Made by a program: the position numbers and the translations under genes. A stretch of 14,550 bases of DNA from Candidatus Methylomirabilota bacterium (lineage in GTDB: Bacteria > Methylomirabilota > Methylomirabilia > Rokubacteriales > CSP1-6). Below, in pieces: positions 177 to 14,550 of the stretch (positions are counted from its first letter, which is position 1; each line of letters starts with the position of its first letter). The DNA is taken from positions 1 to 14,550 of the forward strand of contig JBKPAK010000225.1 in the NCBI GenBank assembly GCA_046726415.1. Direction: 5' to 3'. The notes beneath the pieces are model-generated. The model saw only the letters and a program-made list of their open reading frames with translations. It made no database searches and was not told the origin of the DNA.

Positions 177-456
177 GGTCGTCGGCATACCGCGCGGACT
201 CTACGTGCGTGGTCATGCCCTCGCGGGTGACCGCCTTCGACCGCTCCAGCATGGCATCCACCTCGGTGAGATAGATGTTGCTGAGGAGGGGAGAAATCAC
301 CCCGCCCTGAGGAACCCCGCGCTTCCCGGATGCCTTCAGCATCAGCGTGAGCAAGTGCAGAATCTCGGCATCCTGAACGCGGCGCGCCACCTTCCCCACC
401 AGCAGATCGTGCCGGACGGTATCGAAGTAGGCGCTGCCTCGGCCGGCCCAGCACAA
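151..456 (-). pseudogene. Group II intron reverse transcriptase/maturase, internal fragment (homology about 177-436)
   Basis: Translation contains AYFDTVRH, GVPQGGVISPLLSNIYL and RYADD, the motifs of group II intron RTs. The N-terminal RT domains and the thumb/X domain are absent, and homology stops one base after the YADD codons (178-189). Confidence 0.88.
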
Positions 457-722
457 CCCTTACTACCAACCCGTCCTTCCCACCCCTACTCTCTCCTGGT
501 GAGCCAACCTGATGGCAGCTCTGCCCAGCTTGGCGATACGTCGCCGCCTTTCCCACGGTCTCGCGTAGGCGTGCAGTAAGGCCTAGCTTGATCGGTTGGC
601 GGCGCCCGTTCGGCATCCCGGACAGTCGCGATGTCGCCCGGATGGCATTCTGGCGAAGGACAGGGCCCGAGTTGAAATCCGGACGAAACCGGCTCCATTG
701 TGGGGCGGAAAGAGGTGCTGGA

Positions 723-1942: not shown

Positions 1943-3043
1943 CTACAGATTCGCCTGGAAGTCGACGTAGTCGCGAACCTTGCGGTAAACCTGCAAACGA
2001 TTCCGCTGGCTGTCGGCTACGACGATGCGGTCAGTTTCAGGATCGAAGTCCACCGCCGTCGGGAAGCAGAAGCGATATTCGGGCTCCAGGCTTCGTACCC
2101 GACGTCGAGCCTTCATCATGTCGGGGTTGGCGTCGATGCTCATCTGGCCCCACTTGGACATGACCTGGGCATCGCCGATGAGATTGGCGACAGGGCCGCC
2201 CTCAGCGTCGAAGATGCAGACTCGATGGTTGCCCCAATCAGCGACGTAGATGTCACCGTCGGTATCCACCGCGACGTCGGTGGGATGATTGAGCAGGCCC
2301 GCCTTGGGATAGCCCGGCGTGCCCGAGGCCGACATGTACGGTCCCATGTAGCTGACGGCGTAGGCCCCCGCCGGCGCGGGAATCGTCCCGTACTGGCCGA
2401 TCTTCATCAAGACTTTGCCCTGGGGGGAGAGCTTCTGGACACGGTGGTTCTTCCAGTCCGCGACGTAGATATTGCCCGCCTGATCGAGGGTAATCCCCCA
2501 GGGCTGGTTGAACTCTCCGTCTCCGCTCCCGCCTCTGCCGCACTTCGCCACGAATTTCCCGTCGCCGCTGAAGACCTGCAGGCGATTGTTCCCGCTGTCG
2601 ACGACGATGACGTTACCGTTTTTCTCGCACACCAGACCAGCCGGGCGCAGGAGCTCGCCATCGCCACTGCCCGTCTTCCCCCATTTCCGGAGAAACTTGC
2701 CGGCGCTGTCGAACACCGAGATGGTGTTGTTCCAGTCATCCGAGACGTACACATGGTCCCGGCCGTCGGTCGCGACGCCGAACGGCCAGGTCGAACGGCC
2801 GTCCCCTTCGCCCCACGGGAAGAACTCAGCGAGCAGTTCCTCTTCGCCGGGACCGCCGATCTTTACTTCGTTGACACGCATCCCGAAGTTGTTCTCGTTG
2901 CCCCGGTTGGCGACGTAGGCGACGCCACCGTTCGCGAGGCACATCGTCTGGGGATAGTTGAATCCCGTGCCCGACGCCGCGCCGCGCCCGACGGCGTGGC
3001 TCCACTCGTAGACCCTTCCGCGCGCTACCGTTGTCAGCGGCAT
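1943..3043 (-). CDS. NHL-repeat beta-propeller protein (366 aa)
   Basis: Repeated units such as PFGVATDGRDHVYVSD, PAGLVCEKNGNVIVVDSGNNRLQVF, PWGITLDQAGNIYVADWKNHRVQKL and PTDVAVDTDGDIYVADWGNHRV. RBS GGGAGGGGAG precedes the ATG. Confidence 0.92.
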   Translation of the reverse strand: MPLTTVARGRVYEWSHAVGRGAASGTGFNYPQTMCLANGGVAYVANRGNENNFGMRVNEVKIGGPGEEELLAEFFPWGEGDGRSTWPFGVATDGRDHVYVSDDWNNTISVFDSAGKFLRKWGKTGSGDGELLRPAGLVCEKNGNVIVVDSGNNRLQVFSGDGKFVAKCGRGGSGDGEFNQPWGITLDQAGNIYVADWKNHRVQKLSPQGKVLMKIGQYGTIPAPAGAYAVSYMGPYMSASGTPGYPKAGLLNHPTDVAVDTDGDIYVADWGNHRVCIFDAEGGPVANLIGDAQVMSKWGQMSIDANPDMMKARRRVRSLEPEYRFCFPTAVDFDPETDRIVVADSQRNRLQVYRKVRDYVDFQANL

Positions 3044-3119
3044 TGCTCCCCTCCCATCTCACGCCCTCCTTTCCGTGGCGGAGACCACGGGAAGAGGGCC
3101 GAAACGGCAAACCCTCCCA

Positions 3120-4250
3120 CTAGTTCAGGAAGGCCGGTTGGTCAAAGCGGCCACCGGTGATCGGTTTGGGATCCAACTTCAGCCATTTCTCCAGGATTGT
3201 CGAGTAGATGCTGCGGAAGTCCGTGCTCGGGTTCAGGTCGCCCTGAACCAGCTTCTCAGCCTTGAGGGAGGGATATTCGCCGTAGTGACCACCTTTGACG
3301 TTCTCGCCGAGCAGGAAGACTGGCCCCGCTGCACCGTGGTCCGTCCCCGAGCCGTTGTCGTGCACGCGGCGGCCGAACTCCGAGAACAGCAGGATAAGGA
3401 CGTTATCGGCGTGATCGTGCTCGCGAAGGTCCGCCATGAAGGCCTCGAGCCCCCCGCACACGTCGCTCCACAGGTTGCCGTGGCCCGGGTTCTGACCGGC
3501 GTGGGTGTCGAAGCTGCCATGATCACAGTAGAAAATCCGGCTACCCAGATCGGCGAAGTGCACCTGGGCGATCCCGCGGAGCTTGCGGGCGATCGGGGTA
3601 TCGGGATATTTGACGGTGGACGCGTACTTCTGGGGCGCCACCTTCAGGATGTCCGCGCCCTTCAGGGAATCCAGGCCGGTGGTGCCGAGGTATTCCATCA
3701 CACCGCTCCCCGCGACGGGGGCGTACATCTTCGCGAAGCGATCGAGCACTTGCAGACGCTGCGCCCGTTCCTGGATGTTCGGCAGGAATCCATACTTCTC
3801 CAGGGGACCGGCCACGCACGCTACCGGAACTCCCGGCGCCACCAGAGCCCGAAAGAGGCTTGGTCCGAAGCTCACGACCGTGACCACGTTCTCTTTCCTG
3901 GGGTCGTATTCGCGCGCCACCTGACCCAACCAGCCCTGCGTCCCCACCTTCTCGGGCTCGCAGGTATGCCAGATGTCCATCGATCGGAAGTGGGAGCGCG
4001 GCGAGTTGGCATAGCCGACGCCGTGGACGATGGCGAGCTTGCCTTCATCCCAGACCTTCTTCAGCGGGGCCATCGACGGATGGAAGCCATAGGTCTTGTC
4101 GAAGTGCAGGATCTTGTCGTCGGGGATCCTCACCGCTGGCCGATTGTCGCGGTACAGCGGGTCATTGAACGGAATCACCGTGTTCAGATAGTCGTTCCCG
4201 CCCGAGAGCTGCAGCGTGACCAGCACAGGGTTCTTTTGCGTTGCGGCCAT
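3120..4250 (-). CDS. DUF1501 family protein (376 aa), no Tat leader
   Basis: Motifs QLSGGNDYLN, RSHF, SFDTH, FSEFGRR and GTDHG. Lies directly downstream of DUF1800, as is typical. RBS GAGGAGG. Confidence 0.9.
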   Translation of the reverse strand: MAATQKNPVLVTLQLSGGNDYLNTVIPFNDPLYRDNRPAVRIPDDKILHFDKTYGFHPSMAPLKKVWDEGKLAIVHGVGYANSPRSHFRSMDIWHTCEPEKVGTQGWLGQVAREYDPRKENVVTVVSFGPSLFRALVAPGVPVACVAGPLEKYGFLPNIQERAQRLQVLDRFAKMYAPVAGSGVMEYLGTTGLDSLKGADILKVAPQKYASTVKYPDTPIARKLRGIAQVHFADLGSRIFYCDHGSFDTHAGQNPGHGNLWSDVCGGLEAFMADLREHDHADNVLILLFSEFGRRVHDNGSGTDHGAAGPVFLLGENVKGGHYGEYPSLKAEKLVQGDLNPSTDFRSIYSTILEKWLKLDPKPITGGRFDQPAFLN

Positions 4251-4284
4251 GCGTATTCCTCCTCACCCGATGAGGCTCATGACG

Positions 4285-5691
4285 TTAGGCAAACTGATAC
4301 TCTCGCGTCGCGACGATCAGTTGCAGCATCTCGCCAACACGCTTGTCGGCCGTCTTGGCGCTCGTCTCACTCGCCCAGGCTGTCTGGCCCCACTCCTTGG
4401 CCTGCGCGACGAGCTCCTGCCGCGTTTCGAAGGCCACCTCAACGGGGCCCAGCAGGTCTAGACACCCGTCGACCAGTTGCTCTGGGCTGAGCGTGCCCTT
4501 GGCCTTCAGGCGATCGATGATGGCGCGCACGCCTGGCAGCGACGGATCACCTACCAGTCCGGCAACGAAGTTGATGCGGGCCATCAGGGAGCCACTGTTG
4601 ATCCACTCCGGACCCGTATGCCATCCCTCCACGCTCGGCGGATTCAGGAGGTCCTGACCCATATAGGCGGGCTGCATCGACAGGTCGCCGTACCCGGGTC
4701 GCGGCAGCTCCTGCCCACCCACCAGACGCAAACTGCCCACCACCACCTCAGCGGGGGATTTCAGGTGTTTGAAGCGGGCCTCCTTGAAGAAGCTCGAGTT
4801 GAACAGCACCCGAAGGACGGACCGGATGTCGAAGCGAGACTGACGGAACGCTGCCGTCAGCGAGTCGATCGCCTTCTGGTCTTTCGGCGGCTCGATCGAC
4901 CAGGCGGGCACCTGGGGCTCGTCGGCAACGAAGAAGTTGTAGAGGTGCCGACACACGAAGCGCGCGCAGGCCGGCTGCTCCACCACGATGTCGATGATGT
5001 CTTCGCCGTTGAAACGGCCGCGATGGCCGAGAAACTCTTTTTCGCCGTCGTCATGATCTTCGGGGCGGTACTCGAACTTCCACGGGAACCGCCCATAGGG
5101 CAGGCGCGGGATCTTGGTCTCGAAGGTCCAGCCCGTGAAGGCCCGGGATGCTTCACGTACATCCTTTTCCGTGTAGGCGCCGACGCCCAAGCTGAACAGC
5201 TCGAGCAACTCGCGACCCCAGTTCTCGTTGACGGCGGTCCCGTGGTTCTCGTTGTTGTCGAGCCAGAAAATCATCGTGGGGTTTCTGGCGATCGTGACGA
5301 GTAGGTCGCGGTAGTTGCCCATGCCATGCTGACGGAACAGGCCGATCTGCTCCAGCAGCTGATCGTAGTTATCCACCTTCGAGTTGCCGGTGGCGAACAC
5401 GTGGTGCCAGAAGAGGGCCATTTTCTCTTCCAGCGGGCGCTTCGTGTTCACCAGGTGATACATGATATTCACGTTCCCCATCGGAGGCTGCCCGCCAGGC
5501 AGCAATGACGCCGGCTGGTAGCGGAGCAGGGTGTAGACATCGACCGCCGGCTGTGTCTCGGGGTGAAGCAACTCCTCGACCGTCGCCTCGTACCCCTTGG
5601 CCACGCGCGCTTCCAGTTCGTCGCGGCCTGCGCCGAAGCCCCCACGGCGCATCAGGTGAGCCATCAACGCGATGTCTTCTTGGTATGCCAT
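4285..5691 (-). CDS. DUF1800 family protein (468 aa)
   Basis: Motifs AHLMRRGGFG, LEEKMALFWHHVFAT, NENWGRELLELFSLG, DVREASRAFTGW, HDDGEK and PPSVEGW. RBS AAAGGAG. Confidence 0.9.
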   Translation of the reverse strand: MAYQEDIALMAHLMRRGGFGAGRDELEARVAKGYEATVEELLHPETQPAVDVYTLLRYQPASLLPGGQPPMGNVNIMYHLVNTKRPLEEKMALFWHHVFATGNSKVDNYDQLLEQIGLFRQHGMGNYRDLLVTIARNPTMIFWLDNNENHGTAVNENWGRELLELFSLGVGAYTEKDVREASRAFTGWTFETKIPRLPYGRFPWKFEYRPEDHDDGEKEFLGHRGRFNGEDIIDIVVEQPACARFVCRHLYNFFVADEPQVPAWSIEPPKDQKAIDSLTAAFRQSRFDIRSVLRVLFNSSFFKEARFKHLKSPAEVVVGSLRLVGGQELPRPGYGDLSMQPAYMGQDLLNPPSVEGWHTGPEWINSGSLMARINFVAGLVGDPSLPGVRAIIDRLKAKGTLSPEQLVDGCLDLLGPVEVAFETRQELVAQAKEWGQTAWASETSAKTADKRVGEMLQLIVATREYQFA

Positions 5692-5755
5692 ACGCCGACT
5701 CCTTTAGTTGTGAGTCACTCTCGAGTCACTACCTCCGCCGTGCACTGGGTTCTCG

Positions 5756-6193
5756 TTAGAGCTTTCGTGCCGCCGGGCGCGGAGGCCTGGAGGCTGGACG
5801 TCGCGCGGCACAGACCTGACACACCCCATGGACCGTCACGCTGACCGTCGTCACCACGTAGCCGTCTTTCGCGAGCGGAGTCAGGTCCATCCGTCGAGCC
5901 CGCCGCAAGAACAGGTCGCTCACTCGACCGCATCTCCCGCAGACGAAATGATCATGCTCACTGGTCTCGGGGTCGTATCGCGCTACCTGTTCACCCAGGA
6001 GGAGGGTGCGGATCTTGCCCTCCTCGACGAGACTGTGAAGGTTGCGATACACCGTGGCGAGGCTGATTCGAGGCAGCTTTTTGTGCACGCGCCGGTAGAT
6101 CTCATGGGCGAACGGATGGGTATCGTCGCCCGGGAGAGCTTTGAACACCTCTTCCAGCTGACGCGTCTTACGTTTGCGGGCGGCTGGCCGCAT
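5756..6193 (-). CDS. Fur family transcriptional regulator, PerR-like (145 aa)
   Basis: Motifs HPFAHEIY, ISLATVYRNL, RYD, HDHFVCGRCG, SD and GVCQVC (two CxxC structural Zn motifs). ATG at 6193 follows GAGGGAGG. Confidence 0.9.
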   Translation of the reverse strand: MRPAARKRKTRQLEEVFKALPGDDTHPFAHEIYRRVHKKLPRISLATVYRNLHSLVEEGKIRTLLLGEQVARYDPETSEHDHFVCGRCGRVSDLFLRRARRMDLTPLAKDGYVVTTVSVTVHGVCQVCAARRPASRPPRPAARKL

Positions 6194-6240
6194 GCCTCCC
6201 TCGAACCTTGGCCGTCGGACGGCTCGACGTCCGTTACTGC

Positions 6241-6269
6241 CGGCTATCAAATCATCGGCCGCCTGTCAA
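6241..6269 (-). promoter_or_regulatory. Candidate sigma70 promoter for the regulator-DUF1800-DUF1501-NHL operon
   Basis: Perfect TTGACA (6269-6264), 17-bp spacer, then TAGCCG preceded by TGn. The -10 is a weak match. Confidence 0.4.
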
Positions 6270-6388: not shown

Positions 6389-7671
6389 TGTCCCGGTCAA
6401 AAACTCAACGTTCAAAAGCCTGATGTAGAATCTCGGCCAGCTCTTCATCCCTCACCGTTGGGAGCTGCAATGATCCTCGTCCTGGGCGTCTGGACCTTCC
6501 TCCGCGCCCTTCTCGGCCGCTCCACCGCCGTTACGCTCGAGAACGTTGCTCTGCGCCATCAATTGATCGTCCTGCAGCGGTCGATCCCGCGCCCTCGGCT
6601 CCGCCGCCAGGACCGCATCCTCTGGATTTGCCTCTCACGGCTCGGGGCGAACTGGCGGTCCAGCCTTCTCATTGTCCAGCCCGCCACTGTTGTCGCTGGC
6701 ACCGCCAGGGCTTTCGACTCTACTGGCGTTGGAAGTCCCGACTCCGCTCACCGGGCCGTCCGCCGATCGACCTCGAGATCCGCAGCTTGATTCGACGCAT
6801 GGGCCCGAGAAAACCCCACCTGGGGCCAAGCGCCGGATTCAGGCCGAACTCCGCTTCCTCGGCTATGAAGTCGCCGCCCTCACCGTCGCCAAGTACATGC
6901 GCCGTGCCTCCCGTCACCCGTCGCCTCCCTGGCGGGCCTTCCTGGCTGCTCACCGCCACGACATCGCGGCCATCGACTTCTTCGTCGTACCGACCCTGAC
7001 CTTTCGCCTGTTCTTCGGCTGTGTGATACTCCGCCACCACCGCCGAGAACTCCTCCACATCGGCGTCACCGACCAGCCCACCGCCGCCGGGGCGGCTCAA
7101 CAGATCGTCCACGCCTTCCCGGACGAGACTGGCCCCGCCTACCTGCTCCGCGATCGCGACGCCATGTACGGCGCTGACTTCCAGCGCCGGGTCGAGCGCA
7201 TGGGCATTCGCCAGGTCGTCACCGCACTTCGCGCTCCCTGGCAGAATCCCTTCGCCGAGCGCGTCATCGGCTCGATTCGCCACGAATGCCTCGATCTCGT
7301 TATCGTGCTCAACGAACGCCACCTCCGACGCGTGCTGCGCACGTACCTCGCCTACTACAACGTTACGCGGCCCCACCAGAGTCTCGGTAACGATAGCCCG
7401 CGCCGGCGCACAGTACAGTCCGTCTCATCCGGGCATATCGTCACCGTCTCCGAGGTCGGCGGGCTTCATCACCGCTACCAGCGCGCGGCCTGACCGCCCG
7501 CGATCTCCGCCTGCCAACCCACCCCGCAATCATCTGCTTCGACAGGTCTGTGATGCCGATACCGTCATCGGCGCCGCAGCCCGTGTTGGCACTCGAGTCA
7601 GTTCCAGCGCGAACGTTCTCGGAGCCGACGCGAACGCTTTGCCAGCTCGTATTACCTTTTTGACCGGGACA
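6389..7671 (+). mobile_element. IS481-like (rve/DDE integrase-core) insertion sequence, 1283 bp
   Basis: Perfect 15-bp terminal inverted repeats TGTCCCGGTCAAAAA (6389-6403) and TTTTTGACCGGGACA (7657-7671) enclose an integrase-core transposase. No target duplication is visible. Confidence 0.88.
6470..7493 (+). pseudogene. Integrase-core transposase with three frameshifts
   Basis: Joined frames read LENVALRHQL..QPATVVA / WHRQGFRLYWRWKS..IRRM / ARENPTWG / RRIQAEL..AIDFF..LLRDRD..PWQNPFAERVIGSIRHECLD..YYNVTRPHQSL..GGLHHRY. Shifts are -1 near 6696, +1 near 6802 and +1 near 6829. Confidence 0.88.
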
Positions 7672-8194
7672 GGGGGCGGTGGCCGACGAGCAGCTCGAAA
7701 TCGTGAGCCGGCTCTGGGGAGAGGACAGGCCGAGCTTCGAGGGCCGGTATTATCGCTTCCACAAGGTCGGATTCTCGCCGAAGCCGATGCAGAGGCCACG
7801 CATCCCCATCTGGGTCGGCGGCGAGGGGTCGCGCGCTCAGCGGCGCGCCGCGCGCTACGGCGACGCCTGGTTTCCCTACTTCGTGAGGATCGCCCCGCGC
7901 GAGCTGGCCGCCCGGTTCGACAACGTCCGGCGCTGGGCCCGGGAGGCCGGGCGCGATCCCGAGCCGATCCGGCTCGCGTGCTGTCTGCCGATCGAGTTGA
8001 CGCCAGTGCCAGTGCCGCAGGAGGAAGATCATCTGAGGGGCAGCCCGGAGCAGCTCGCGGTCGCCCTTCGGGCCTACGGGAAGATCGGCGTCGAGCACAT
8101 CGCGCTGCAGTTCATGGTGCCGCGCTGGCCCGAGCGCCGCGAGCAGATCGAGCGCTTCGCCCAGGAGGTCATGCCCGGATTCAGCACCCGCTGA
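7672..8194 (+). pseudogene. LLM-class (luciferase-like, probably F420-dependent) oxidoreductase, C-terminal half only
   Basis: GAVADEQLEIVSRLW, FEGRYYRF, PKPMQRPRIPIWVGG, RRAARYGDAW and IERFAQEVMP. Coding sequence begins directly at the IS right end. Confidence 0.85.
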
Positions 8195-8221
8195 AGCCTC
8201 GGAGGTGCGTCGTGGCGACTC

Positions 8222-8300
8222 GGGCATCCTGATTCCCGGGGCGAACAAGGCTACGGCGGACCGAGTGGACGCGACCGGACGCAACCGCCGCGCAACCACG
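8222..8300 (+). pseudogene. Possible C-terminal scar of a tyrosine site-specific integrase
   Basis: With one frameshift it reads GH-LIPGANKATADRVDATGRN, resembling the post-catalytic tail (Y)GHLIPGANxxAVDRLD of island integrases. It overlaps CGCAACC repeats at 8280-8286 and 8291-8297. Confidence 0.4.
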
Positions 8301-8656
8301 GGCCACGGGACGAGCCGATGACCGAGACGCGTAAGTAGTTGAAAAGGGTTGGCTCCCCTTCGTGGAGTCATATCGTGCGATAGCGGGCTCGGCAGGACTT
8401 GCGCAAGGCGGGCGCCCGGGACGGCGCTCCGAACTCGTGGGATTTTTCGCTGGCCCTGGATGGTTCCGGGGAGGCGCTGCCCCAAGGTGGGGCGCCAGCG
8501 CCTGCCTGGGTGTCGCAGGTCCGCAGCACGCCGAAGGCGTTGGGGGTATCATGCGGTCCTCGATCCCGAGCGGCAGGTCCTCTGGAACACACGGGCCGGG
8601 CCCGGCGGTACGGGTTCTGATTGGACGGAACCTCCCGGCATGGAACGAGGGTCGCG

Positions 8657-10315
8657 ATGCCAAAGCACTCGGTCCTGATCGTAGGCGGCGGAATCGCTGG
8701 GATGCGGGCGGCCCTGGCGGCGAAGGAACGGGGCACCGACGTCGCGCTGATCTCGAAGGTCCATCCTCTGCGGACCCAGGGCGGCACAAGCCAGGGCGGG
8801 ATCAATGCGGCCGTGCGCGACGGGGACAGCGCCGAGCTTCACGCGGCGGACACGGTCAAAGGCGGTGATTACCTCGCCGACCAGGCGGCCGTCGAGCTCT
8901 TGACCGGCGCGGCGCGCAGCGTGGTCATCGCGCTGGACCACTGGGGGGTGCCGTTCAACCGGAACGCGAACGGCCGTCTCGACGCGAGGCGCCTCGGCGG
9001 AGCCAGCCGCCCGCGCGCATGTTTCGTCGACGACATGACCGGCCACGCCATCCTCCAGGTCCTTCACGAGCAGCTCCTCAAGGCGACGATTCCGACCTAC
9101 GAAGAGTGGACGGTGACGAGCCTCCTCGCCGAGGACGGCGCGTGCGTCGGCGTCGTCGCGCTCGAGCTCGCCACGGGCCGGAGCGACGCCTTCACGGCCA
9201 ATGCCGTGGTGCTCGCGACGGGCGGGTGTGCCCGCGTGTACGAGCCGACCGGAGCGGCCTACGGAGTCACCGGAGATGGCGTGGCGCTGGCGTACCGAGC
9301 GAGCGCTTCCCTGATGAACATGGAGATGGTCCAGTTCCATCCGCTCGGGATCAAGGGAAGCGGGATGATCCTGAGCGAGGCGCTCCTCGGGCTCGGGGGA
9401 TACCTGATCAACACGCGTGGCGAGCGTTTCGTGCTGAAGTCTGCTCCGACGCTCGGCGAGCAAGCGCCGCGTGACGTCGTGGCTCGCGCCGCGGAAGAGG
9501 AGATCGTGAGCGGGCATGCGGAGTTCGTCGCGCTCGACCTCCGCCATCTCGACGGCGACGAATTGAAGCGTCTCGGATTGACCGGTCACATCATCAAGAC
9601 GCAGGCCGGCGTCGATCCGGCCAAGCACACGATTCCCGTACGTCCCGTGGCGCACCGCACGATGGGGGGCGTCCAGGTCACCTCGGACGGCGCCACCGGT
9701 ATGGCGGGGCTCTACGCGACGGGGGGATGCGCGGCCACCGGCGTCCATGGCGCCAACGGGCTCGCGGGCAACTGGCTCCTCGAAGCCCTGGTCTTCGGGG
9801 AGCGAGCCGGTCGGGCGGCAGCCCAGCGAGCGCCGCAGCCCGCAAAAGGGATCGACGCGCAGCTCGAGGACGAACGGCGCCGGATCGCCTCGCTGGTGGA
9901 TCGACCGGCGGGATCCGAGAAGGCGGGAGCCCTCCGGAACGAGCTGGGGCGCCTGATGCGGCGGCACGTCGGCCCCTTGCGGATCGCGTCTGGCCTTCAG
10001 GAGGCGGCGAACCAGATCGGGGAGCTGGCCACGCGATTCCGCAAAGTGGGGATCGCGAACAAGCAACGGCACTATAACTACGAGCTCGTCGCTTTCCTGG
10101 AACTCGAGTCTCTCCTGACCGTCGGCGGCGTGATCGTCGCCACCGCCGGGTTCAGAGAGGAGAGCCGGGGCGCCCACTATCGCCAGGATCGTCCGGAACG
10201 AGACGACGCCCGATGGCTCGCGCACACCGTGGCGTCCTTCCGACCTGATGGCCCCGCGATGACCTCGAAGCCTGTCGGGATCACGCGATGGAAGCCGGAA
10301 GGGAGACGGTACTGA
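8657..10315 (+). CDS. sdhA: SdhA/FrdA-family flavoprotein subunit with a divergent active site (552 aa)
   Basis: Motifs VGGGIAG, QGGINAA, DTVKGGDYLADQ, VVLATGG, MEMVQFHP, APRDVVAR, HRTMGG, VHGAN and REESRGAHYR. ATG at 8657 follows GAGGG. Confidence 0.9.
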   Translation: MPKHSVLIVGGGIAGMRAALAAKERGTDVALISKVHPLRTQGGTSQGGINAAVRDGDSAELHAADTVKGGDYLADQAAVELLTGAARSVVIALDHWGVPFNRNANGRLDARRLGGASRPRACFVDDMTGHAILQVLHEQLLKATIPTYEEWTVTSLLAEDGACVGVVALELATGRSDAFTANAVVLATGGCARVYEPTGAAYGVTGDGVALAYRASASLMNMEMVQFHPLGIKGSGMILSEALLGLGGYLINTRGERFVLKSAPTLGEQAPRDVVARAAEEEIVSGHAEFVALDLRHLDGDELKRLGLTGHIIKTQAGVDPAKHTIPVRPVAHRTMGGVQVTSDGATGMAGLYATGGCAATGVHGANGLAGNWLLEALVFGERAGRAAAQRAPQPAKGIDAQLEDERRRIASLVDRPAGSEKAGALRNELGRLMRRHVGPLRIASGLQEAANQIGELATRFRKVGIANKQRHYNYELVAFLELESLLTVGGVIVATAGFREESRGAHYRQDRPERDDARWLAHTVASFRPDGPAMTSKPVGITRWKPEGRRY

Positions 10316-11277
10316 TGCAGGCGACATTCAAGATCTATCGCTACGACCCTGAAGCGGGCGGCCAACCGACCTTCCAGCCGTACGCGCTCGAGCTACCCGA
10401 GGAGGCGACCGTGCTCGACGGGCTCTTCAAGATCAGGGAAGAGCTGGACGGGACCCTCGCCTTCCGCGCGTCCTGCAACCGCGGGTTCTGTGGCGAGTGC
10501 ACGCTCAGGATCAACCGGGGTGGACGGCTCGCCTGCATGACCAGCGTCGCCGCCGCGAAGACGAAGGACGGCGAGATCACGGTGGAGCCGACACGCCACG
10601 TGCGCGTACTGAAGGATCTCGTCTACGACGTGGACCGTCAGCTGTGGCAGAAAATCCGGGCGGTGGAGCCGTGGCTTCAGCCGACGGACCCCCGGCTGGA
10701 GGGCGAGTATGTGGTCGCTGACGCAGAGCTTCGGCCTGTGCGCAACGCGATGAAGTGCTATTACTGCGGGCTCTGTGACGAAGGGTGCAGCGTGATCCCA
10801 TTCGACAACAGCTTCCTCGGGCCCACTGCGCTCACCAAGGCGTATCGCTTCGTCGCCGATCCCCGCGATGGTGCGCGGGCGCGTCGCCTGCGTGTGGTCG
10901 GCGAGCCGCGAGGGATGTGGGACTGTGTCCACTGCTATGAGGCCGACGAGCACTGCCCGCGGGGAATCGAGCCGACCCAGCGGATCCTCGATCTCCGTGA
11001 GATGGCCGTGGGCGTCGGGATCAAGTCGGGTGCGACGAATCCGCAAGTGGCGCGCCACTACGATAGCTTCGCGGCCTCGGTCAGGAAGAGCGGATGGCTC
11101 GACGAAGGGCGGCTGGCCCTCGAAACCTGGGGGGTCCGACGCATCTTCGATCTCCTTCCCGTCGCCTGGCGTGCGCTCCGGCGAGGGAAGCTGCCGATTC
11201 CCTATCGGCATCCCAAGCGGCGGGGCGCCGAGCGGATCAATCGAATCTTTGAGAAGGTCGAGAGGAGAACGCCATGA
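10315..11277 (+). CDS. sdhB: SdhB/FrdB iron-sulfur subunit with type E-like C-terminal extension (320 aa)
   Basis: Motifs SCNRGFCGEC..RLAC (2Fe-2S), CYYCGLCDEGC and CVHCYEADEHCP. Starts in a TGATG overlap with the sdhA stop. Confidence 0.92.
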   Translation: MQATFKIYRYDPEAGGQPTFQPYALELPEEATVLDGLFKIREELDGTLAFRASCNRGFCGECTLRINRGGRLACMTSVAAAKTKDGEITVEPTRHVRVLKDLVYDVDRQLWQKIRAVEPWLQPTDPRLEGEYVVADAELRPVRNAMKCYYCGLCDEGCSVIPFDNSFLGPTALTKAYRFVADPRDGARARRLRVVGEPRGMWDCVHCYEADEHCPRGIEPTQRILDLREMAVGVGIKSGATNPQVARHYDSFAASVRKSGWLDEGRLALETWGVRRIFDLLPVAWRALRRGKLPIPYRHPKRRGAERINRIFEKVERRTP

Positions 11278-12149
11278 AGGTCGCCTTCTATCCTGGGTGC
11301 GTGTCGCGAGGTGGCTGCCCCGAGCTGTACCCGGCGGCGGTCAAGGTGGCGGCCGAGCTGGGTCTCGAGCTCGAGGAACTGACCGACGTGGGCTGCAACG
11401 GCGCCGGCGTGCTCAGCCGAGAGGTCTGCGACCCCATCAACGCGCGGACCTTCGCGAAGGCCGAGCAGCGAGGACTGTCGACGGTCATGACGATCTGCAG
11501 CACCTGCACCGGAGTGATGGGCCAGGCGAGCATCCGGTTGCGGGAGGACGCCCGCTATCGTGAGCTGATCAATCGAGAGTTCCTGGCCGATGAGGGCCTC
11601 GAGTACCGGGGCACGGTCGCCGTCAAGCACCTGCTCTGGATCCTCCACGAGGACTATGGGCTCGACCGGCTGAAGACGGCCGTGAAGCGCCCGCTCCGAG
11701 GCCTGAAGGTGTCGCCCTTCTACGGCTGCTACATCCGCCGGCCCGACGCGATCATCGAGGGCAAGCCCCAGCGCAAGCAATACCTGGAGCGGACCATCGA
11801 GGCGGTCGGTGCCGAGGTCGTGGATTTCGGCGGCAAGGGCCGATGCTGCGGGTTCCCGATCCTCACGGCGAACGAGACGAACTCGATGGCGATGGTCGCC
11901 GCGCACACCAGCGAGGCGAAGGGCCGGGGCGCCGATTGCATGGTCACGCCGTGTCCCCTCTGTCACCTCAACCTCGACGGCGGCCAGCCCAAGGCCGAGG
12001 CGCAGAAGGGGGAGCCGATCGGCTTGCCGATCCTGCACCTTCCCCAACTCCTCGGACTGGGCTTCGGCTTCAGCCCCGAAGAGCTCCAGCTGAAGCGGCA
12101 CATCGTGCCGACCCGAACCGTCGCCGAAAAGGTGCAGCTCCTCACCTGA
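11274..12149 (+). CDS. HdrB-like / type E SdhE CCG-domain subunit (291 aa)
   Basis: Motifs FYPGC, GCNGAG, TICSTC, FYGC, CCGFP, TPCPLCHLNLD and LPILHLPQLLGL. ATGA overlap with sdhB. Confidence 0.9.
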   Translation: MKVAFYPGCVSRGGCPELYPAAVKVAAELGLELEELTDVGCNGAGVLSREVCDPINARTFAKAEQRGLSTVMTICSTCTGVMGQASIRLREDARYRELINREFLADEGLEYRGTVAVKHLLWILHEDYGLDRLKTAVKRPLRGLKVSPFYGCYIRRPDAIIEGKPQRKQYLERTIEAVGAEVVDFGGKGRCCGFPILTANETNSMAMVAAHTSEAKGRGADCMVTPCPLCHLNLDGGQPKAEAQKGEPIGLPILHLPQLLGLGFGFSPEELQLKRHIVPTRTVAEKVQLLT

Positions 12150-12152
12150 GCG

Positions 12153-13670
12153 ATGGACGTCAAGCTAGGGAGCCACCTGATCCGGCTCTGCACCGGTCTC
12201 TGTTGCCGCTTGGTGGGGGCCACGGATCACCTTCGCACGCTCGAGAATCGCCTGGCCATCACGCACGGGCAGACGACAGTTGATGGCCGGGTCGCGGTGG
12301 AGGAGGCGCGCTGCCTCTCGGTGTGTTCGCTCGCTCCTGTCGTCGAGGTCGACGGCGTCTGCCACGGCCGCGTGACGTCGGCCGCGATCGATCGTCTGCC
12401 GAGGTGGTACCGGACACGGCCGCCGTGGCCGGCGGACGTCGACGCCTCCAACTTCCCCCCGGTTCGGGCCGACGGCGCCACCGCACGAGAGCGTCTCGCC
12501 TGGCTCCGCGCCCAGGCGGAGGCTCGTGCCCGCGCGCGGCCCGAATGGCGATTCCTGGTTCAGGGCGGCTCGTGCGGCGAGGCGCTCGGGGCCGGCGAGA
12601 CGCTCAAGGCGCTTCGGATCCTGGCCGCCATGCGCGGGCTCGACGCCGAGGTGCTCGACGGAGCCTGTCACGGGCTGTGCGCGGCGGGAATCGTGGTGGA
12701 GGTCCAGCGCGCCGGGTGGCCGGCGCTGACCTTCATCCACCTGACGACAGACACGGTTCCCGACTTCCTGTCTGCGGTCGCAGGTGGCACGCCGCCGTTG
12801 ACGCACTTTGCCGGCGTGGCCTGGAACAGCGAGGGCTGGCGAGGCCTTCCTCCAGTGTCGCGTCACCCGTTCTTCGCGAGGCAGCGTCGCGTGATTTTGG
12901 AACGATGCGGTCACGTCAATCCCGTCAGCCTCGACGACGCCCTCCTCCGCGATGGGTACTCCGCGCTCGCACAGGTTCTGGACCACCGGACCGCTGAGGA
13001 CGTCATCGAGGAGGTGCCGGTGTCCACCGGCTTCGTGGTGAGCGGAGCAGACGGGATCCCCGGCCTCTTCACGGATCGCCACCTCATGGAAGGAGACCCA
13101 CACCGCGTGCTCGAGGGCTTGGTGATTGCAGGCCATGCGGCACGAACGAACTTCGGCATCATCCGGATCAACGGCGCGGCGCGGCTCACGCGTGACCGAA
13201 TGGCTCGGGCCAACGCCAAGGCACAGGCCGCCGGGCTGATCGGTGAGCGCATCCTCGGGTCGGAATTCTCCTTCCACGTGGAGATCCGCCAGGAGGCGCG
13301 CGGACCCCTCCTGGACGAAGAGCCCCTTTCGAGCATCGCGGCCCTGGCCGCGCTTCCTCCATTGATCGCCGAGGGCGATCGCGGACGGGCCAGCCCGGGC
13401 GGGAGCCCGACGACACTGTGCGGTGTGTCGGGTCCGGTTGATCGCCCCGGGATCGTGGAAGTCGACGGAGCTGTCACACTGCGTGAGTTGCTTTCCTCGA
13501 TCGCGGGCGCGCCCCGCGATCGAGGCCAATTCAAGTGCGCGCTGGTTGTAGGAGCATCTGGAGTCCCGCTCAGCGCCGAGTCGCTCGACGCTCCGGTGCA
13601 GTCTCTCGCCGCCTTCTCGGCCGGAACCGGTGGCGTCATCGCCTTCCCTGACGATCCGACAGGTTCCTAG
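12153..13670 (+). CDS. NuoE-like 2Fe-2S + second thioredoxin-like Fe-S domain + reduced NuoF/HydB-like domain fusion (505 aa)
   Basis: CTGLCC..CLSVCSLAPVVEVDG (NuoE type) and GSCG..GACHGLC. NuoF/HydB-like stretches FFARQRRVILERCG, DRHLMEGDPHRVLEG, GLIGERILGSEFSFHVEI and SGPVDRPGIVEV. Starts 3 nt after the CCG gene stop. Confidence 0.82.
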   Translation: MDVKLGSHLIRLCTGLCCRLVGATDHLRTLENRLAITHGQTTVDGRVAVEEARCLSVCSLAPVVEVDGVCHGRVTSAAIDRLPRWYRTRPPWPADVDASNFPPVRADGATARERLAWLRAQAEARARARPEWRFLVQGGSCGEALGAGETLKALRILAAMRGLDAEVLDGACHGLCAAGIVVEVQRAGWPALTFIHLTTDTVPDFLSAVAGGTPPLTHFAGVAWNSEGWRGLPPVSRHPFFARQRRVILERCGHVNPVSLDDALLRDGYSALAQVLDHRTAEDVIEEVPVSTGFVVSGADGIPGLFTDRHLMEGDPHRVLEGLVIAGHAARTNFGIIRINGAARLTRDRMARANAKAQAAGLIGERILGSEFSFHVEIRQEARGPLLDEEPLSSIAALAALPPLIAEGDRGRASPGGSPTTLCGVSGPVDRPGIVEVDGAVTLRELLSSIAGAPRDRGQFKCALVVGASGVPLSAESLDAPVQSLAAFSAGTGGVIAFPDDPTGS

Positions 13671-14161
13671 CGAAGCTTCGCCTCAGCCGCCGGTCGAGCC
13701 CTCGACCGCCGCTGGCAGCGTCGGCTCGTCGCCCGTGTCGCGCTCGCCATCCAAGGCGGAGCGGGGCCGCTGCGTTCCTCTTCCGCGACCGGGGCGAGGG
13801 CCAGCGGCCAAGCGTCGCCGACGTGCAGGGGTTCTTCACACTACGGGCTACGCGGGGCCTCGCCCGTGATGGGCACGAAGCTGTCCCTCGGCAAAATCCC
13901 ATCCAGCGGTCACATGGTGGAAGCCTTCGACTACGGACAAAAGTGCGGGCGCCACGATGAGCGGCGACCTCGAGCGAGAGAACCGTCGCCTCTGCGTCCA
14001 GGAGGAGAACGAGTAGCTTGATACCTCACCGGCCGGACCGGAGGTCGCCACGATGGGCAAGTAGCTCGCATGCGTCAGGAAGCACGCGAGCTGCCTGGAG
14101 TCTGCGCCGATTCGGACGTTCAGGGACCACTTGCGCTATAGATCGACCAGTGCACCTGGAA

Positions 14162-14187
14162 TGGTGGCCCCAGGGGGATTCGACCCC
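14162..14187 (-). other. tRNA 3'-end fragment (probably tRNA-Glu), likely an att site
   Basis: Minus strand reads GGGGTCGAATCCCCCTGGGGCCACCA: a near-canonical T-arm, a 3' acceptor strand TGGGGCC, a discriminator A and CCA. No convincing anticodon or D arm upstream. Confidence 0.65.
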
Positions 14188-14276
14188 GTATGGTCCGAAT
14201 ACTCGGCGGAGCGTCACCCGGTACACGGGCCGGGTTGAGGCACGGTACGATCAGCCCATGACGACCGATGTCACCC

Positions 14277-14550
14277 TGTCCCGGTCAATAACCCCATCTG
14301 CTCGTCCTACTTGAACTTCTTCACCGTCTCCACCGCCCATCCGGTAGGGTCTCGACCCAGACGCCATGCCGGATGCCGGGGGGGCCGCGATGGTTCTCGT
14401 GACGGGTTTACCTTCCTTCACGCCGTGTTCTTTGGGTCAGCGGCGATCGCCCTTGAGAACATGGCGCTCCGCCATCAACTGCTCGTCCTTCAGCGATCGG
14501 CCGGCCGACCACGTCTGGCTCAGCGGGACCGGATCTTCTGGGTCTGGCTG
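14277..14550 (+). mobile_element. Left part of a second, diverged IS481-like copy (runs off the window)
   Basis: Left IR TGTCCCGGTCAATAA (14277-14291) matches the first element at 14 of 15 positions and is followed by a homologous transposase N-terminus. Confidence 0.85.
14390..14550 (+). pseudogene. Integrase-core transposase N-terminus, frameshifted near its start, partial
   Basis: MVLV.. / FTFLHAVFFGSAAIALENMALRHQLLVLQRSAGRPRLAQRDRIFWVWL aligns with MILV..WTFLRALLGRSTAVTLENVALRHQLIVLQRSIPRPRLRRQDRILWICL at 6470. The ATG at 14390 is out of frame with the homologous frame. Confidence 0.8.

What the first reader, a model, noticed from the sequence alone, without database searches (positions are those of the whole stretch)
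12153..13670. NuoE/HydB-like fusion with FMN/NADH-binding segments removed in frame
Seen: after EDVIEEV (about 13016) the Gly-rich SGLRGRGGAGFPTGxKW segment is absent. NADEGxPG has drifted to GADGIPG and GAYICGEETAL to EARGPLLDEE (13293-13322). The following EGxRGxPRxKPP..NNVET stretch is absent, and the protein ends before the SCGxCxPCR 4Fe-4S domain. The NuoE N-terminal helical domain is also missing. The Cys sets of two thioredoxin-like Fe-S domains remain and the 505-codon frame is intact. Known: the missing segments bind FMN, NAD(H) and cluster N3 in NuoF/HoxF/HydB. Inference: a flavin-free pseudo-diaphorase acting as Fe-S wire, ferredoxin dock or scaffold.
Basis: partly seen in the sequence, partly recalled or inferred. 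Interest (0 to 1): 0.75.

Follow-up and report, generated by a model that had tools for sequence, protein, structure and literature searches.

The report
Dead diaphorase subunit beside succinate dehydrogenase
A gene at the end of a succinate dehydrogenase operon encodes a relative of the NADH-oxidising module of formate dehydrogenase and complex I that has lost every part needed to hold flavin and NADH, yet is still kept by selection: an enzyme turned into a non-catalytic subunit.

Summary
ORF 12153-13670 (505 aa) is a fused NuoE/NuoF-type protein. It lacks the NuoE helical domain, the Gly-rich FMN/NADH loop, a 33-residue GEET-to-NNVET segment and the whole N3 4Fe-4S domain. One correction: only the first thioredoxin-like domain has a 4-Cys set. 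The second has 3 Cys in all 104 family members, intact ones included.

It is not a HydB relative in the strict sense. Its full-length relatives (about 700 aa) are FdsG-FdsB-type fusions. They lie beside a formate dehydrogenase alpha gene in 59 of 80 loci. The window protein is the most reduced form in a nested loss series within one Rokubacteria clade. That clade sits directly after sdhA-sdhB-sdhE (type E complex II) in all four complete cases, with a conserved 3-nt junction.

dN/dS is 0.30-0.35, the same range as the intact paralogs, and the strongest constraint has moved to the N-terminal half.

Best reading: a selected, flavin-free pseudo-diaphorase kept as an accessory subunit of SdhABE with one [2Fe-2S] site. 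Binding to Sdh is inferred from gene order, not shown. I rate it a new variant of a known kind, of moderate interest.

The parts
8621..10315 (+). sdhA/frdA flavoprotein subunit, first gene of the conserved block
   Evidence: Pfam FAD_binding_2 292 bits and Succ_DH_flav_C. TIGR01812 575 bits, above its cut-off of 567. 80-83% identical orthologues lie upstream of EF' in L001 and L003.
10288..11277 (+). sdhB iron-sulfur subunit. The real start is probably Met10, nt 10315.
   Evidence: Fer2_3 and Fer4_8. TIGR00384 178 bits. M10 is invariant in the 101-sequence alignment A5. Its 11 Cys are at 63/68/71/83, 157/160/163/167 and 213/216/223.
11274..12149 (+). sdhE, the CCG-domain (HdrB-like) subunit of type E succinate:quinone oxidoreductase
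   Evidence: Pfam CCG, 2 stretches. MFR_anch_SdhE 174 bits and CoB_CoM_SS_B 176 bits, both below their cut-offs. 91-92% identical in L001-L003. 7996 relatives found.
12150..12161 (+). sdhE-EF' junction and site of the N-terminal in-frame deletion
   Evidence: CTGA-GCN-ATGGAC is conserved in the window, L001, L002 and L003. After Met-Asp the window continues with VKLGSH, where L001-L003 carry about 62 further residues, the NuoE helical domain.
12153..13670 (+). EF': the degenerate FdsG/FdsB (NuoE/NuoF)-type fusion protein, 505 aa (P0001)
   Evidence: AF2 model pLDDT 84.8, pTM 0.89. Foldseek top matches are HydB, NfnB and FdsB with TMq 0.56-0.66.
12153..12407 (+). Domain 1 (residues 1-85): NuoE/FdsG-type thioredoxin-like [2Fe-2S] domain with the full 4-Cys set
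   Evidence: Pfam 2Fe-2S_thioredx 66.5 bits. C13, C18, C54 and C58 are invariant in 104 of 104 sequences.
12543..12797 (+). Domain 2 (residues 131-215): FdsB/NfnB-type N-terminal thioredoxin-like domain with 3 Cys (C141, C172, C176); a possible Zn-type site
   Evidence: Aligns to residues 5-100 of 9bov_B and 9n5u_B. The 3-Cys pattern holds in all classes. It has the lowest dN/dS of the protein, 0.20-0.25. E143 and H173 are fixed only in the degenerate clade.
13014..13031 (+). Deletion scar 1 (residues 288-293): replaces the 32-residue stretch that holds the Gly-rich FMN/NADH loop
   Evidence: pLDDT is below 50 at residues 286-291.
13014..13325 (+). Residual Rossmann-type core of the Complex1_51K domain (residues 288-391); EEGEPG has become GADGIPG and GEET has become DEEP
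   Evidence: Pfam profile positions 31-99 only. D308, H310, D315, P316, E321 and G322 remain invariant in 104 of 104 sequences. dN/dS is 0.30-0.36.
13323..13334 (+). Deletion scar 2 (residues 391-394): replaces the 33-residue ALLESIEG...PTVINNVET segment
   Evidence: pLDDT is below 50 at residues 384-391.
13326..13670 (+). SLBB/ubiquitin-like domain and C-terminus (residues 392-505). The protein ends where intact relatives begin the four-helix N3 [4Fe-4S] domain.
   Evidence: SLBB 20 bits. Aligns to residues 322-436 of 7t2r_B. 0 of 54 degenerate-clade sequences have the CxxCxxC motif, against 50 of 50 intact ones.

Best explanation
EF' is a catalytically dead descendant of the FdsG-FdsB (NuoE-NuoF-type) NADH dehydrogenase module. 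A paralogue of the formate dehydrogenase diaphorase came to lie next to a type E sdhABE operon in a Rokubacteria lineage.

It then lost its parts in steps:
1. the N3 [4Fe-4S] domain;
2. the Gly-rich loop and the GEET motif;
3. the NuoE helical domain;
4. finally, by in-frame trimming, the now useless loops.

The window protein is the most reduced form. It cannot bind FMN or NADH in the ancestral way. It still folds as two thioredoxin-like domains plus a Rossmann/SLBB core, keeps one complete [2Fe-2S] ligand set and a 3-Cys metal site, and is under purifying selection.

It is most likely co-translated with SdhE and kept as a non-catalytic accessory subunit of the SdhABE complex, at the operon position where classical type E enzymes have SdhF. 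It would contribute structure or stability and a peripheral [2Fe-2S] centre rather than a substrate site.

Shown: the losses, their order, the operon linkage and the selection. Inferred: physical association with SdhABE, cluster occupancy, and the scaffold role.
For: Losses:
-.
- 0 of 54 degenerate-clade sequences have the Gly-rich motif or the N3 Cys motif, against 50 of 50 intact ones.

Functional meaning of the lost parts:
- PMC11829005, passages: loop 1 GLRGRGGAGFP and loop 2 sandwich the NADH adenine, and FMN sits in the cleft of the Rossmann, ubiquitin-like and four-helix-bundle domains.
- PMC6560083, passages: E95, E97 and E184 of NuoF bind NADH.

Order of losses (IQ-TREE on 73 rows):
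- The degenerate clade of 54 rows has support 100*. Its sister is intact P0061/P0065.
- The N3-less class II is basal.
- Classes III+IV+V have 100*. Class V plus P0027 has 100*.
- The helical domain was lost at least 3 times.

Operon linkage:
- sdhA-sdhB-sdhE lies immediately upstream in the window and in L001 and L003; sdhB-sdhE in the truncated L002.
- In L022, EF follows sdhABE after two inserted genes.
- The other 76 loci have no Sdh genes.
- The CTGA-GCN-ATGGAC junction is identical in 4 of 4.
- L022's copy is 96% identical to intact P0061, so the linkage predates the decay.

Origin:
- 59 of 80 loci carry an FdsA-type gene beside the full-length form, and 0 of the 4 Sdh-linked loci do.
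- MAGs AR17 and AR26 carry both kinds: L003 and L033, L001 and L041.

Selection:
- dN/dS is 0.30-0.35 overall. The bootstrap 95% interval is 0.24-0.39. For residues 288-391 the maximum of 500 bootstraps is 0.67.
- Intact paralogues at similar dS score 0.16-0.36.
- The constraint has moved. Domain 2 scores 0.20-0.25 against 0.40 in intact pairs, and the NuoF N-terminal region 0.13-0.27 against 0.46. The Rossmann core scores 0.30-0.36 against 0.22, and SLBB 0.40-0.46 against 0.26.
- 47 of the 57 clade-specific fixed residues lie in residues 5-259.

Fold: kept, with pLDDT 84.8. Confidence is low at the N-terminus (residues 1-5), at the two deletion scars (286-291, 384-391) and at 411-416. The model matches HydB, NfnB and FdsB.
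Against: - No direct evidence that EF' touches SdhA, SdhB or SdhE. Association rests on gene order and the coupled junction only.
- EF' evolves 2-4 times faster than its Sdh neighbours: dN/dS 0.30-0.35 against 0.08-0.20.
- One orthologue (L003) carries a 25-nt deletion that breaks the frame, although a near-identical intact protein, P0042, exists with 87 member sequences.
- The same SdhE type is widespread at 65-72% identity in other phyla. Whether those operons carry an EF' was not examined. If they do not, as the narrow range of the EF' clade suggests, EF' is not generally required by SdhABE.
- The dN/dS values are simple Nei-Gojobori pairwise estimates at dS 0.5-0.8 in a GC3-rich genome, and the domain values rest on 35-110 codons.
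- Expression is unknown.
Confidence: 0.55

Rival explanations
1. EF' is an active electron-transfer subunit. Its NuoE-type [2Fe-2S] cluster, possibly with a metal centre in thioredoxin-like domain 2, forms a new entry or exit port. This port would link SdhB/SdhE to a soluble low-potential partner such as ferredoxin, making the complex a ferredoxin-linked fumarate reductase or giving it a second outlet.
For: - The four [2Fe-2S] Cys are invariant in 104 of 104 sequences.
- Constraint has shifted onto the two thioredoxin-like domains.
- E143 (93%) and H173 (100%) became fixed next to the three Cys of domain 2 only in the degenerate clade.
- In NfnABC the C-subunit [2Fe-2S] domain and the B-subunit thioredoxin domain help form the ferredoxin-binding 'tripod' (PMC11829005, passages).
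Against: - That tripod also needs the B3/B4 ferredoxin-like C-terminal domain, which this whole family lacks.
- With FMN and N3 gone, the remaining cluster has no neighbour inside the protein, so a wire needs a wholly new docking geometry.
- Conservation of the N1a-type cluster is also seen where it is off-pathway (recalled knowledge of complex I).
- No partner gene is conserved nearby: window ORFs up- and downstream have no match in L001-L003.
Confidence: 0.2
2. EF' is a relic on its way to loss. It is a former NADH-input subunit no longer used, still open in most genomes only because too little time has passed.
For: - The losses are stepwise and ongoing. Gap 2 shrinks from 33 to 17, then 5-7, then 2 residues within one clade.
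- The helical domain was lost three times independently.
- L003 is frameshifted.
- The C-terminal half is less constrained than in the intact paralogues.
Against: - dN/dS is 0.30-0.35 at dS 0.58-0.82, and every domain is below 0.6. No bootstrap replicate of the pseudo-FMN part reaches 1.
- All deletions are in frame and excise loops while the fold is predicted with pTM 0.89.
- All 54 degenerate-clade sequences used are uninterrupted proteins of at least 480 aa.
- 57 positions became newly fixed in the clade.
Confidence: 0.1
3. EF' works independently of the Sdh complex, for example as a redox- or iron-sensing protein or an assembly/maturation factor. It would share the operon only for co-regulation.
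For: The function of the retained [2Fe-2S] and 3-Cys sites is open. The operon partner SdhE is found widely in other phyla, where the presence of an EF' was not examined.
Against: The coupled TGA-3 nt-ATG junction is conserved in 4 of 4 loci across dS of about 0.5-0.8. No DNA-binding or known maturation domain was found.
Confidence: 0.1
4. EF' still binds a nucleotide or flavin in a non-canonical way and keeps some dehydrogenase activity.
For: The Rossmann-type core and the motif DRHLMEGDPHxxLEG remain invariant. The SLBB loop xGTGG is partly kept.
Against: - Both NADH-sandwiching loops and the FMN cleft's four-helix bundle are absent.
- The residues invariant or near-invariant in the intact forms at window positions 302 (E), 307 (K), 391 (T), 393 (N) and 421 (K) are replaced.
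- There is no exit cluster.
Confidence: 0.04

Closest known systems
FdsG-FdsB diaphorase module of NAD-dependent formate dehydrogenase (FdsABG/FdsGBA; solved 6vw7/6vw8, 6tg9)
   Same: This is the closest by descent. The intact relatives (36-46% identity) are fused FdsG+FdsB-type proteins that lie beside an FdsA-type gene in 59 of 80 loci. The domain order is the same: NuoE-like [2Fe-2S], thioredoxin-like domain, Rossmann, SLBB. Foldseek TMq to 6vw8_B is 0.62.
   Different: There is no FMN/NADH loops, no N3 domain and no FdsG helical domain. It is linked to sdhABE instead of fdsA.
NuoE/NuoF, the N-module of respiratory complex I
   Same: Homologous domains (Pfam PF01257, PF01512, PF10531), with structure matches to Aquifex NuoF and Thermus Nqo1. 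The N1a-type 4-Cys set is kept.
   Different: It scores 88 bits against the 559-bit cut-off of nuoF_fam. The defining cofactor sites are absent. It is fused into one chain and is not in a nuo operon.
HydB/NfnB + HydC/NfnC (BfuBC core of electron-bifurcating enzymes)
   Same: These give the best sequence and fold matches in the PDB. The 3-Cys thioredoxin-like domain matches the B5 site of C. saccharolyticus NfnB, which holds Zn with 3 Cys and 1 Glu (PMC11829005).
   Different: There is no C-terminal 2x[4Fe-4S] domain in any family member, no FMN and no B1/N3 cluster. It therefore cannot bifurcate.
Type E succinate:quinone oxidoreductase SdhABEF (Sulfolobus, Acidianus) and sdhABE-type enzymes (Wolinella/Campylobacter MfrABE)
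   Same: The three upstream genes are SdhA, SdhB and a two-CCG-domain SdhE. Type E enzymes have a second small non-transmembrane subunit, SdhF (PMC2754724, passages). EF' occupies the fourth position of the operon (the classical gene order is recalled).
   Different: EF' is unrelated to SdhF and four to five times larger (SdhF size recalled). The third Cys motif of SdhB is C-x2-C-x2-A-x3-C-P with an invariant Ala.
Pseudoenzymes and vestigial cofactor sites retained as structural parts of respiratory complexes (for example the off-pathway N7 cluster of NuoG; recalled)
   Same: A catalytic fold kept under selection after its cofactor sites were lost.
   Different: Here the whole loss series survives in living relatives and can be ordered on a tree.

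Membership tests
NuoF / Complex1_51K NADH dehydrogenase flavoprotein (includes FdsB, HoxF, HydB, NfnB) | Gly-rich loop (GxRGRGGAGF-type) that binds FMN/NADH | tested here: not met
   It is absent: 6 residues stand where intact relatives have 32. The motif is found in 0 of 54 degenerate-clade sequences and 50 of 50 intact ones.
NuoF / Complex1_51K NADH dehydrogenase flavoprotein (includes FdsB, HoxF, HydB, NfnB) | Acidic (N/E)(A/E)(D/E)xGEPG loop and GEET motif at the NADH/FMN pocket | tested here: not met
   The window has GADGIPG and GPLLDEEP, where the intact forms have (G/A)EEGEPG in 50 of 50 and GEET in 48 of 50.
NuoF / Complex1_51K NADH dehydrogenase flavoprotein (includes FdsB, HoxF, HydB, NfnB) | C-terminal four-helix domain with the N3 [4Fe-4S] Cys motif (PF10589) | tested here: not met
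   There is no PF10589 match. The protein ends 3 residues after the SLBB domain.
NuoF / Complex1_51K NADH dehydrogenase flavoprotein (includes FdsB, HoxF, HydB, NfnB) | Rossmann-type core plus SLBB/ubiquitin-like fold | tested here: met
   AF2 model pTM 0.89. Foldseek E 1e-25 to 1e-23 to HydB, NfnB and FdsB.
NuoF / Complex1_51K NADH dehydrogenase flavoprotein (includes FdsB, HoxF, HydB, NfnB) | Curated whole-protein score | tested here: not met
   TIGR01959 scores 87.9 bits against a cut-off of 558.65. Pfam PF01512 scores 34.1 against 31.2, covering profile positions 31-99 only.
NuoE / FdsG thioredoxin-like [2Fe-2S] subunit | C-x4-C-x35-C-x3-C ligand set in a thioredoxin-like domain | tested here: met
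   C13, C18, C54 and C58 are invariant in 104 of 104 sequences. PF01257 scores 66.5 bits. Cluster occupancy itself cannot be tested here.
NuoE / FdsG thioredoxin-like [2Fe-2S] subunit | N-terminal helical domain | tested here: not met
   Only profile positions 63-140 of 145 match. About 62 residues are deleted after Met-Asp relative to L001-L003.
Type E succinate:quinone oxidoreductase operon (SdhABE[F]) | SdhA flavoprotein, SdhB Fe-S protein and an SdhE with two CCG domains, with no transmembrane SdhC/D | tested here: met
   No cytochrome b-type anchor gene was found in the conserved block. The features are as defined in PMC2754724.
Type E succinate:quinone oxidoreductase operon (SdhABE[F]) | EF' is a physical subunit of the complex | not testable with these tools
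   Only gene order and the conserved coupled junction speak for it.
Type E succinate:quinone oxidoreductase operon (SdhABE[F]) | SdhB centre S3 is a second [4Fe-4S], needing four Cys in the second motif | tested here: inconclusive
   The second motif has three Cys (C213, C216, C223), with an invariant Ala219 at the canonical third position.

The most novel reading that the evidence does not exclude
The series records the conversion of an NADH-linked fumarate reductase/succinate dehydrogenase (sdhABE plus an intact FdsGB-type NADH module, as in the P0061/L022 arrangement) into a complex that keeps the dead module as an entrenched subunit. In the end state the surviving [2Fe-2S] centre, and a metal site in thioredoxin-like domain 2 remodelled by the clade-specific E143 and H173, have taken on a new job. 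That job would be a new electron port or a redox switch on a type E complex II, a subunit class not described for any complex II.
Probability: 0.15. Interest if true: 0.75.

Novelty: new variant of a known kind. Interest (0 to 1): 0.55.

Why it matters
Automatic pipelines label this protein 'NADH-quinone oxidoreductase subunit F/E' (source names). Metabolic reconstructions of Rokubacteria therefore gain an NADH-oxidising function that the sequence cannot perform.

It is also an unusually complete natural record of how a redox enzyme module becomes a pseudoenzyme inside a respiratory operon. Intact, N3-less, loop-less, helix-less and trimmed forms all survive and nest on one tree, and the constraint measurably moves from the catalytic half to the thioredoxin-like half.

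If the intact sister form really works with SdhABE, it would define an NADH-linked type E fumarate reductase. If EF' is a true subunit, type E complex II has a new kind of accessory subunit. Both points can be tested directly with four cloned genes.

Tried and rejected
- Complex prediction: SdhB(126-329) + SdhE + EF', each with an alignment. Result: no verdict, score 0.00 in two runs, controls not run. This says nothing either way.
- The listing of cluster members, to confirm that EF' and Sdh proteins of classes II, IV and V share contigs, was switched off. Only equal source and contig length remain, which is circumstantial: P0016/P0246, P0048/P0248, P0050/P0253, P0054/P0127.
- SdhE-EF' fusion proteins: six long relatives (708-1034 aa) scanned with Pfam have no CCG domain.
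- Promoter/terminator scan of 8100-14200: nothing above shuffles.
- Rfam on the window: 0 matches.
- Motif regexes on the 146 broader superfamily representatives were too crude to classify them.
- dN/dS: the ORFs picked for L015 and L044 were in wrong frames and were dropped. L033 is a divergent copy (omega 0.45-0.54) and was kept apart.
- Literature: searches returned no description of an Sdh-linked degenerate NuoEF/FdsGB protein among the papers listed. PMC12727194 was opened and was not relevant.
- Read-through of the sdhE stop into EF' (same frame) was considered and rejected. There is a conserved ATG-GAC start 3 nt after the stop in 4 of 4 loci, and no fusion was found.
So the DNA of the 15 other class V clusters, their operon context and their codon-level selection stayed unchecked.
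Full report
**What is there.** ORF 12153-13670 (+) encodes 505 residues without interruption.
- Pfam sees only the C-terminal, thioredoxin-like half of the NuoE domain: residues 5-82, profile positions 63-140 of 145.
- It sees the middle third of the NuoF FMN-binding domain: residues 294-373, profile positions 31-99 of 150, 34 bits.
- It sees a weak SLBB match and no NADH_4Fe-4S domain.
- The NCBIfam NuoF equivalog scores 88 bits against a cut-off of 559.

**Where the segments are missing.** phmmer alignments to solved HydB/NfnB-type chains (7t2r_B, 9bov_B, 9n5u_B) show it directly.
- After EDVIEEV (residues 281-287) the query skips the SGLRGRGGAGFP region.
- After residue 391 it skips about 34 residues.
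- It ends at about reference residue 436 of about 590.

**The one sub-claim that fails: the two Cys sets.**
- Domain 1 has C13-x4-C18-x35-C54-x3-C58, invariant in 104 of 104 family sequences.
- Domain 2 has only C141, C172 and C176. The position of the first Cys is Val in at least 90% of sequences of every class, intact ones included.
- The solved NfnB of C. saccharolyticus has the same 3-Cys pattern in this domain. It holds a Zn ion with three Cys and one Glu there, not a cluster (PMC11829005, passages read).

**Relatives and the loss series.** A search of the 5.8-billion-protein set gave 412 relatives, of which 120 were listed. On the 104 of those that are at least 480 aa long (alignment A2), a motif census gives five classes.

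| Class | Sequences | Size | State |
|---|---|---|---|
| I | 50 | about 700-765 aa | All features intact: helical NuoE domain, Gly-rich loop, (G/A)EEGEPG, GEET (48 of 50), the 33-residue segment ending NNVET, and the N3 CxxCxxC motif |
| II | P0050, P0054, P0058 | | Lacks N3 |
| III | 30 | about 620 aa | Also lacks the Gly-rich motif and has GEER instead of GEET |
| IV | 5 | | Also lacks the helical domain |
| V | the window plus 15 clusters, P0002-P0016 | 489-526 aa | Also has the two loops trimmed |

- In class V, gap 1 is 3-12 residues in 15 of 16 sequences. Gap 2 is 2-7 residues in 16 of 16.
- None of the 54 degenerate sequences has the Gly-rich or N3 motif.
- I built an IQ-TREE tree of 73 rows. 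To save time I kept 19 of the 50 intact sequences and all 54 others.
- The tree nests the classes. The degenerate clade has support 100*, and its sister is the intact pair P0061/P0065. Class II is basal. Classes III+IV+V have 100*. Class V plus P0027 has 100*.
- The helical domain was lost at least three times.
- In the 1.84-billion representative library the degenerate clade collapses to two full-length 50% clusters, P0011 and P0058, plus fragments. It is a narrow lineage.

**Context.** The gene is the fourth in a same-strand block:
- sdhA, 8621-10315 (TIGR01812, 575 bits);
- sdhB, 10288-11277;
- sdhE, 11274-12149 (two CCG stretches, HdrB-like);
- EF', starting 3 nt after the sdhE stop.

This is a type E succinate:quinone oxidoreductase/fumarate reductase set as defined in PMC2754724 (passages).

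- Among 80 loci fetched from species-representative genomes (328 relatives were found and the best 80 kept), only four carry Sdh genes upstream of the EF gene: L001, L002, L003 and L022.
- The first three are class III forms with exactly the same CTGA-GCN-ATGGAC junction as the window.
- In L022 an alpha/beta hydrolase gene and panB lie between sdhE and the EF gene. That EF copy is 96% identical over 314 residues to the intact class I protein P0061. It is cut by a frame change and the contig end.
- In 59 of the 80 loci the full-length form lies beside an FdsA-type formate dehydrogenase alpha gene with Fer2_4, 4Fe-4S and molybdopterin domains. None of the four Sdh-linked loci has one.
- Two MAGs hold both kinds of copy: AR17 has L003 and L033, and AR26 has L001 and L041.
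- The window's other ORFs have no counterpart in those loci.
- So the family is the fused FdsG-FdsB diaphorase of NAD-dependent formate dehydrogenase. The window protein belongs to a paralogous branch that became attached to sdhABE while still intact, and then decayed.

**Is it a relic?** I computed pairwise Nei-Gojobori estimates with my own script for the window against L001, L002 and L003.

| Gene or region | dN/dS | dS |
|---|---|---|
| SdhA | 0.17-0.20 | |
| SdhB | 0.10-0.15 | |
| SdhE | 0.08-0.10 | |
| EF' | 0.30-0.35 | 0.58-0.82 |
| EF' pseudo-FMN core, residues 288-391 | 0.30-0.36 | |

- The bootstrap 95% interval for the whole gene is 0.24-0.39. For residues 288-391 it is 0.16-0.51, and the highest of 500 replicates is 0.67.
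- Intact Fdh-linked paralogues compared among themselves at dS 0.23-0.74 give 0.16-0.36. The wrongly framed ORFs of L015 and L044 were dropped. The divergent L033 gives 0.45-0.54.
- EF' is therefore no more relaxed overall than its working paralogues.

The distribution of constraint has changed.

| Region | EF' | Eight intact pairs (mean) |
|---|---|---|
| Thioredoxin-like domain 2 | 0.20-0.25 | 0.40 |
| NuoF N-terminal region | 0.13-0.27 | 0.46 |
| Rossmann core | 0.30-0.36 | 0.22 |
| SLBB part | 0.40-0.46 | 0.26 |

- Residue conservation agrees. 47 of the 57 positions fixed specifically in the degenerate clade lie in residues 5-259. 35 of the 45 positions that are conserved in intact forms but changed in the clade lie in residues 285-503.
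- The domain values rest on 35-110 codons each and should be read as a trend.
- One orthologue (L003) has a 25-nt deletion that removes AWNxEGWRG and shifts the frame. A near-identical unbroken protein, P0042, stands for 87 member sequences.

**Structure.**
- AlphaFold2 with the 104-sequence alignment gives pLDDT 84.8 and pTM 0.89. Confidence is low only at residues 1-5, 286-291, 384-391 and 411-416; two of these stretches are the deletion scars.
- Foldseek finds HydB (7p8n, 8a6t), NfnB (9n5u, 9bp5) and FdsB (6vw8) with TMq 0.60-0.66.
- The deletions have therefore excised loops and left the domain cores.

**What the lost parts did.**
- In NfnB the NADH adenine is sandwiched by Phe159 of loop 1 (GLRGRGGAGFP) and Phe294 of loop 2 (residues 283-299). 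[quoted passage not shown]
- In Aquifex NuoF, residues E95, E97 and E184 bind NADH through waters (PMC6560083, passages).
- In the window protein loop 1, loop 2 and the four-helix bundle are gone.
- The residues conserved in the intact forms at window positions 302 (E), 307 (K), 391 (T), 393 (N) and 421 (K) are replaced.
- That FMN also contacts the Gly-rich loop and NNVET is recalled from complex I structures, not taken from a call.

**Mechanism proposed.**
- Shown: the protein cannot be an NADH:acceptor oxidoreductase of the ancestral type. It is maintained by selection. It is encoded in tight coupling with sdhE. It derives from an intact module already linked to sdhABE.
- Inferred: it is a subunit of the SdhABE complex, retained for structure or assembly and carrying a peripheral [2Fe-2S] centre. 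It sits at the operon position where classical type E enzymes have SdhF (gene order recalled).
- The rival reading is that the [2Fe-2S] centre and a remodelled metal site in domain 2 form a new electron port. E143 is fixed in 93% and H173 in 100% of the 54 degenerate sequences, against Arg and Asn in the intact forms. This reading is not excluded.
- A relic reading is disfavoured by the selection data.

**Comparison and novelty.**
- The protein is a member of the NuoE/NuoF-FdsG/FdsB superfamily by descent and fold. It fails four of the five defining features of a NuoF-type flavoprotein that I tested, so it should not be annotated as NuoF, NuoE, HoxF or HydB.
- Four literature searches listed no paper describing an Sdh-linked degenerate NuoEF/FdsGB protein.
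- Other partial forms exist elsewhere. P0444, P0494 and P0496 have half-length Complex1_51K matches but keep N3. Atlas clusters of N3-less NuoEF-like fusions occur in other phyla, with scores below 0.9, so these are leads only. The general phenomenon of degenerate NuoF-like proteins may therefore not be unique.
- I rate it a new variant of a known kind and of moderate interest. Its main value is as a clean, ordered record of pseudoenzyme formation in a respiratory operon, and as a correction of annotation.

**Limits.**
- Binding to Sdh, metal content and expression are untested.
- The single complex prediction gave no verdict.

Noticed in passing
window 10288-11277 (SdhB residues 213-224): The second ferredoxin-type motif of SdhB reads C213-x2-C216-x2-A219-x3-C223-P. 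The Ala is invariant in 101 aligned sequences. It therefore has the 'extra' second Cys but lacks the third. This differs from the classical 3Fe-4S motif, and from the four-Cys motif expected for the second [4Fe-4S] of type E enzymes (the classical motifs are recalled).
   Followed up: partly
window 12147-12155; L001 6803-6811; L002 1868-1876; L003 4293-4301: sdhE and EF' are in the same reading frame, separated only by TGA plus one codon (GCN). The sequence CTGA-GCN-ATGGAC is conserved in 4 of 4 loci.
   Followed up: partly
L003 about 5150-5204: The EF' orthologue of MAG AR17 has a 25-nt deletion relative to the window and L001. It removes the conserved AWNxEGWRG motif and shifts the frame. 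The two resulting ORFs overlap by 4 nt: 4299-5204 and 5201-6121. It could be a real pseudogene, a split gene or an assembly error; this is undecided.
   Followed up: partly
L022 4878-6714 and about 7730-7849: In the locus with the intact-type copy, an alpha/beta hydrolase gene and panB lie between sdhE and the EF gene on the same strand. The EF reading frame changes about 120 nt before the contig end.
   Followed up: partly
window 12579-12581 (E143) and 12669-12671 (H173): Two potential metal ligands next to the three Cys of thioredoxin-like domain 2 are fixed only in the degenerate clade. E143 is present in 93% and H173 in 100% of the 54 degenerate sequences. The intact forms have Arg (54%) and Asn (80%) at these positions.
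   Followed up: no
window 6672-7493 (+) and 151-456 (-): There is an integrase core domain (rve_3, 57 bits) and a short reverse-transcriptase fragment (RVT_1, 35 bits). These look like remains of mobile elements upstream of the operon.
   Followed up: no
window 1943-5691 (-), 5756-6250 (-), 588-1868 (+): Other genes in the window: a DUF1501/DUF1800 gene pair, an NHL-repeat ScyF-like protein, a FUR-family regulator and a Peripla_BP_6 solute-binding protein. None is conserved next to the operon in related loci.
   Followed up: no
window 7639-8232 (+), 13636-13902 (-), 14018-14550 (+): The ORFs flanking the operon have no Pfam or NCBIfam match and no tblastn match in the 80 loci. ORF 7679-8194 has a strong coding signature, with GC3 of 0.90.
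   Followed up: no
proteins P0444, P0494, P0496 (one search hits): Other NuoF-like proteins from the representative library match only the first two thirds of Complex1_51K (profile positions 2-99, 1-97 and 18-112 of 150) yet keep the N3 domain. They may be independent partly degenerate forms. ESM Atlas also lists N3-less NuoEF-like fusion clusters in Planctomycetota and Actinomycetota, with scores below 0.9.
   Followed up: partly
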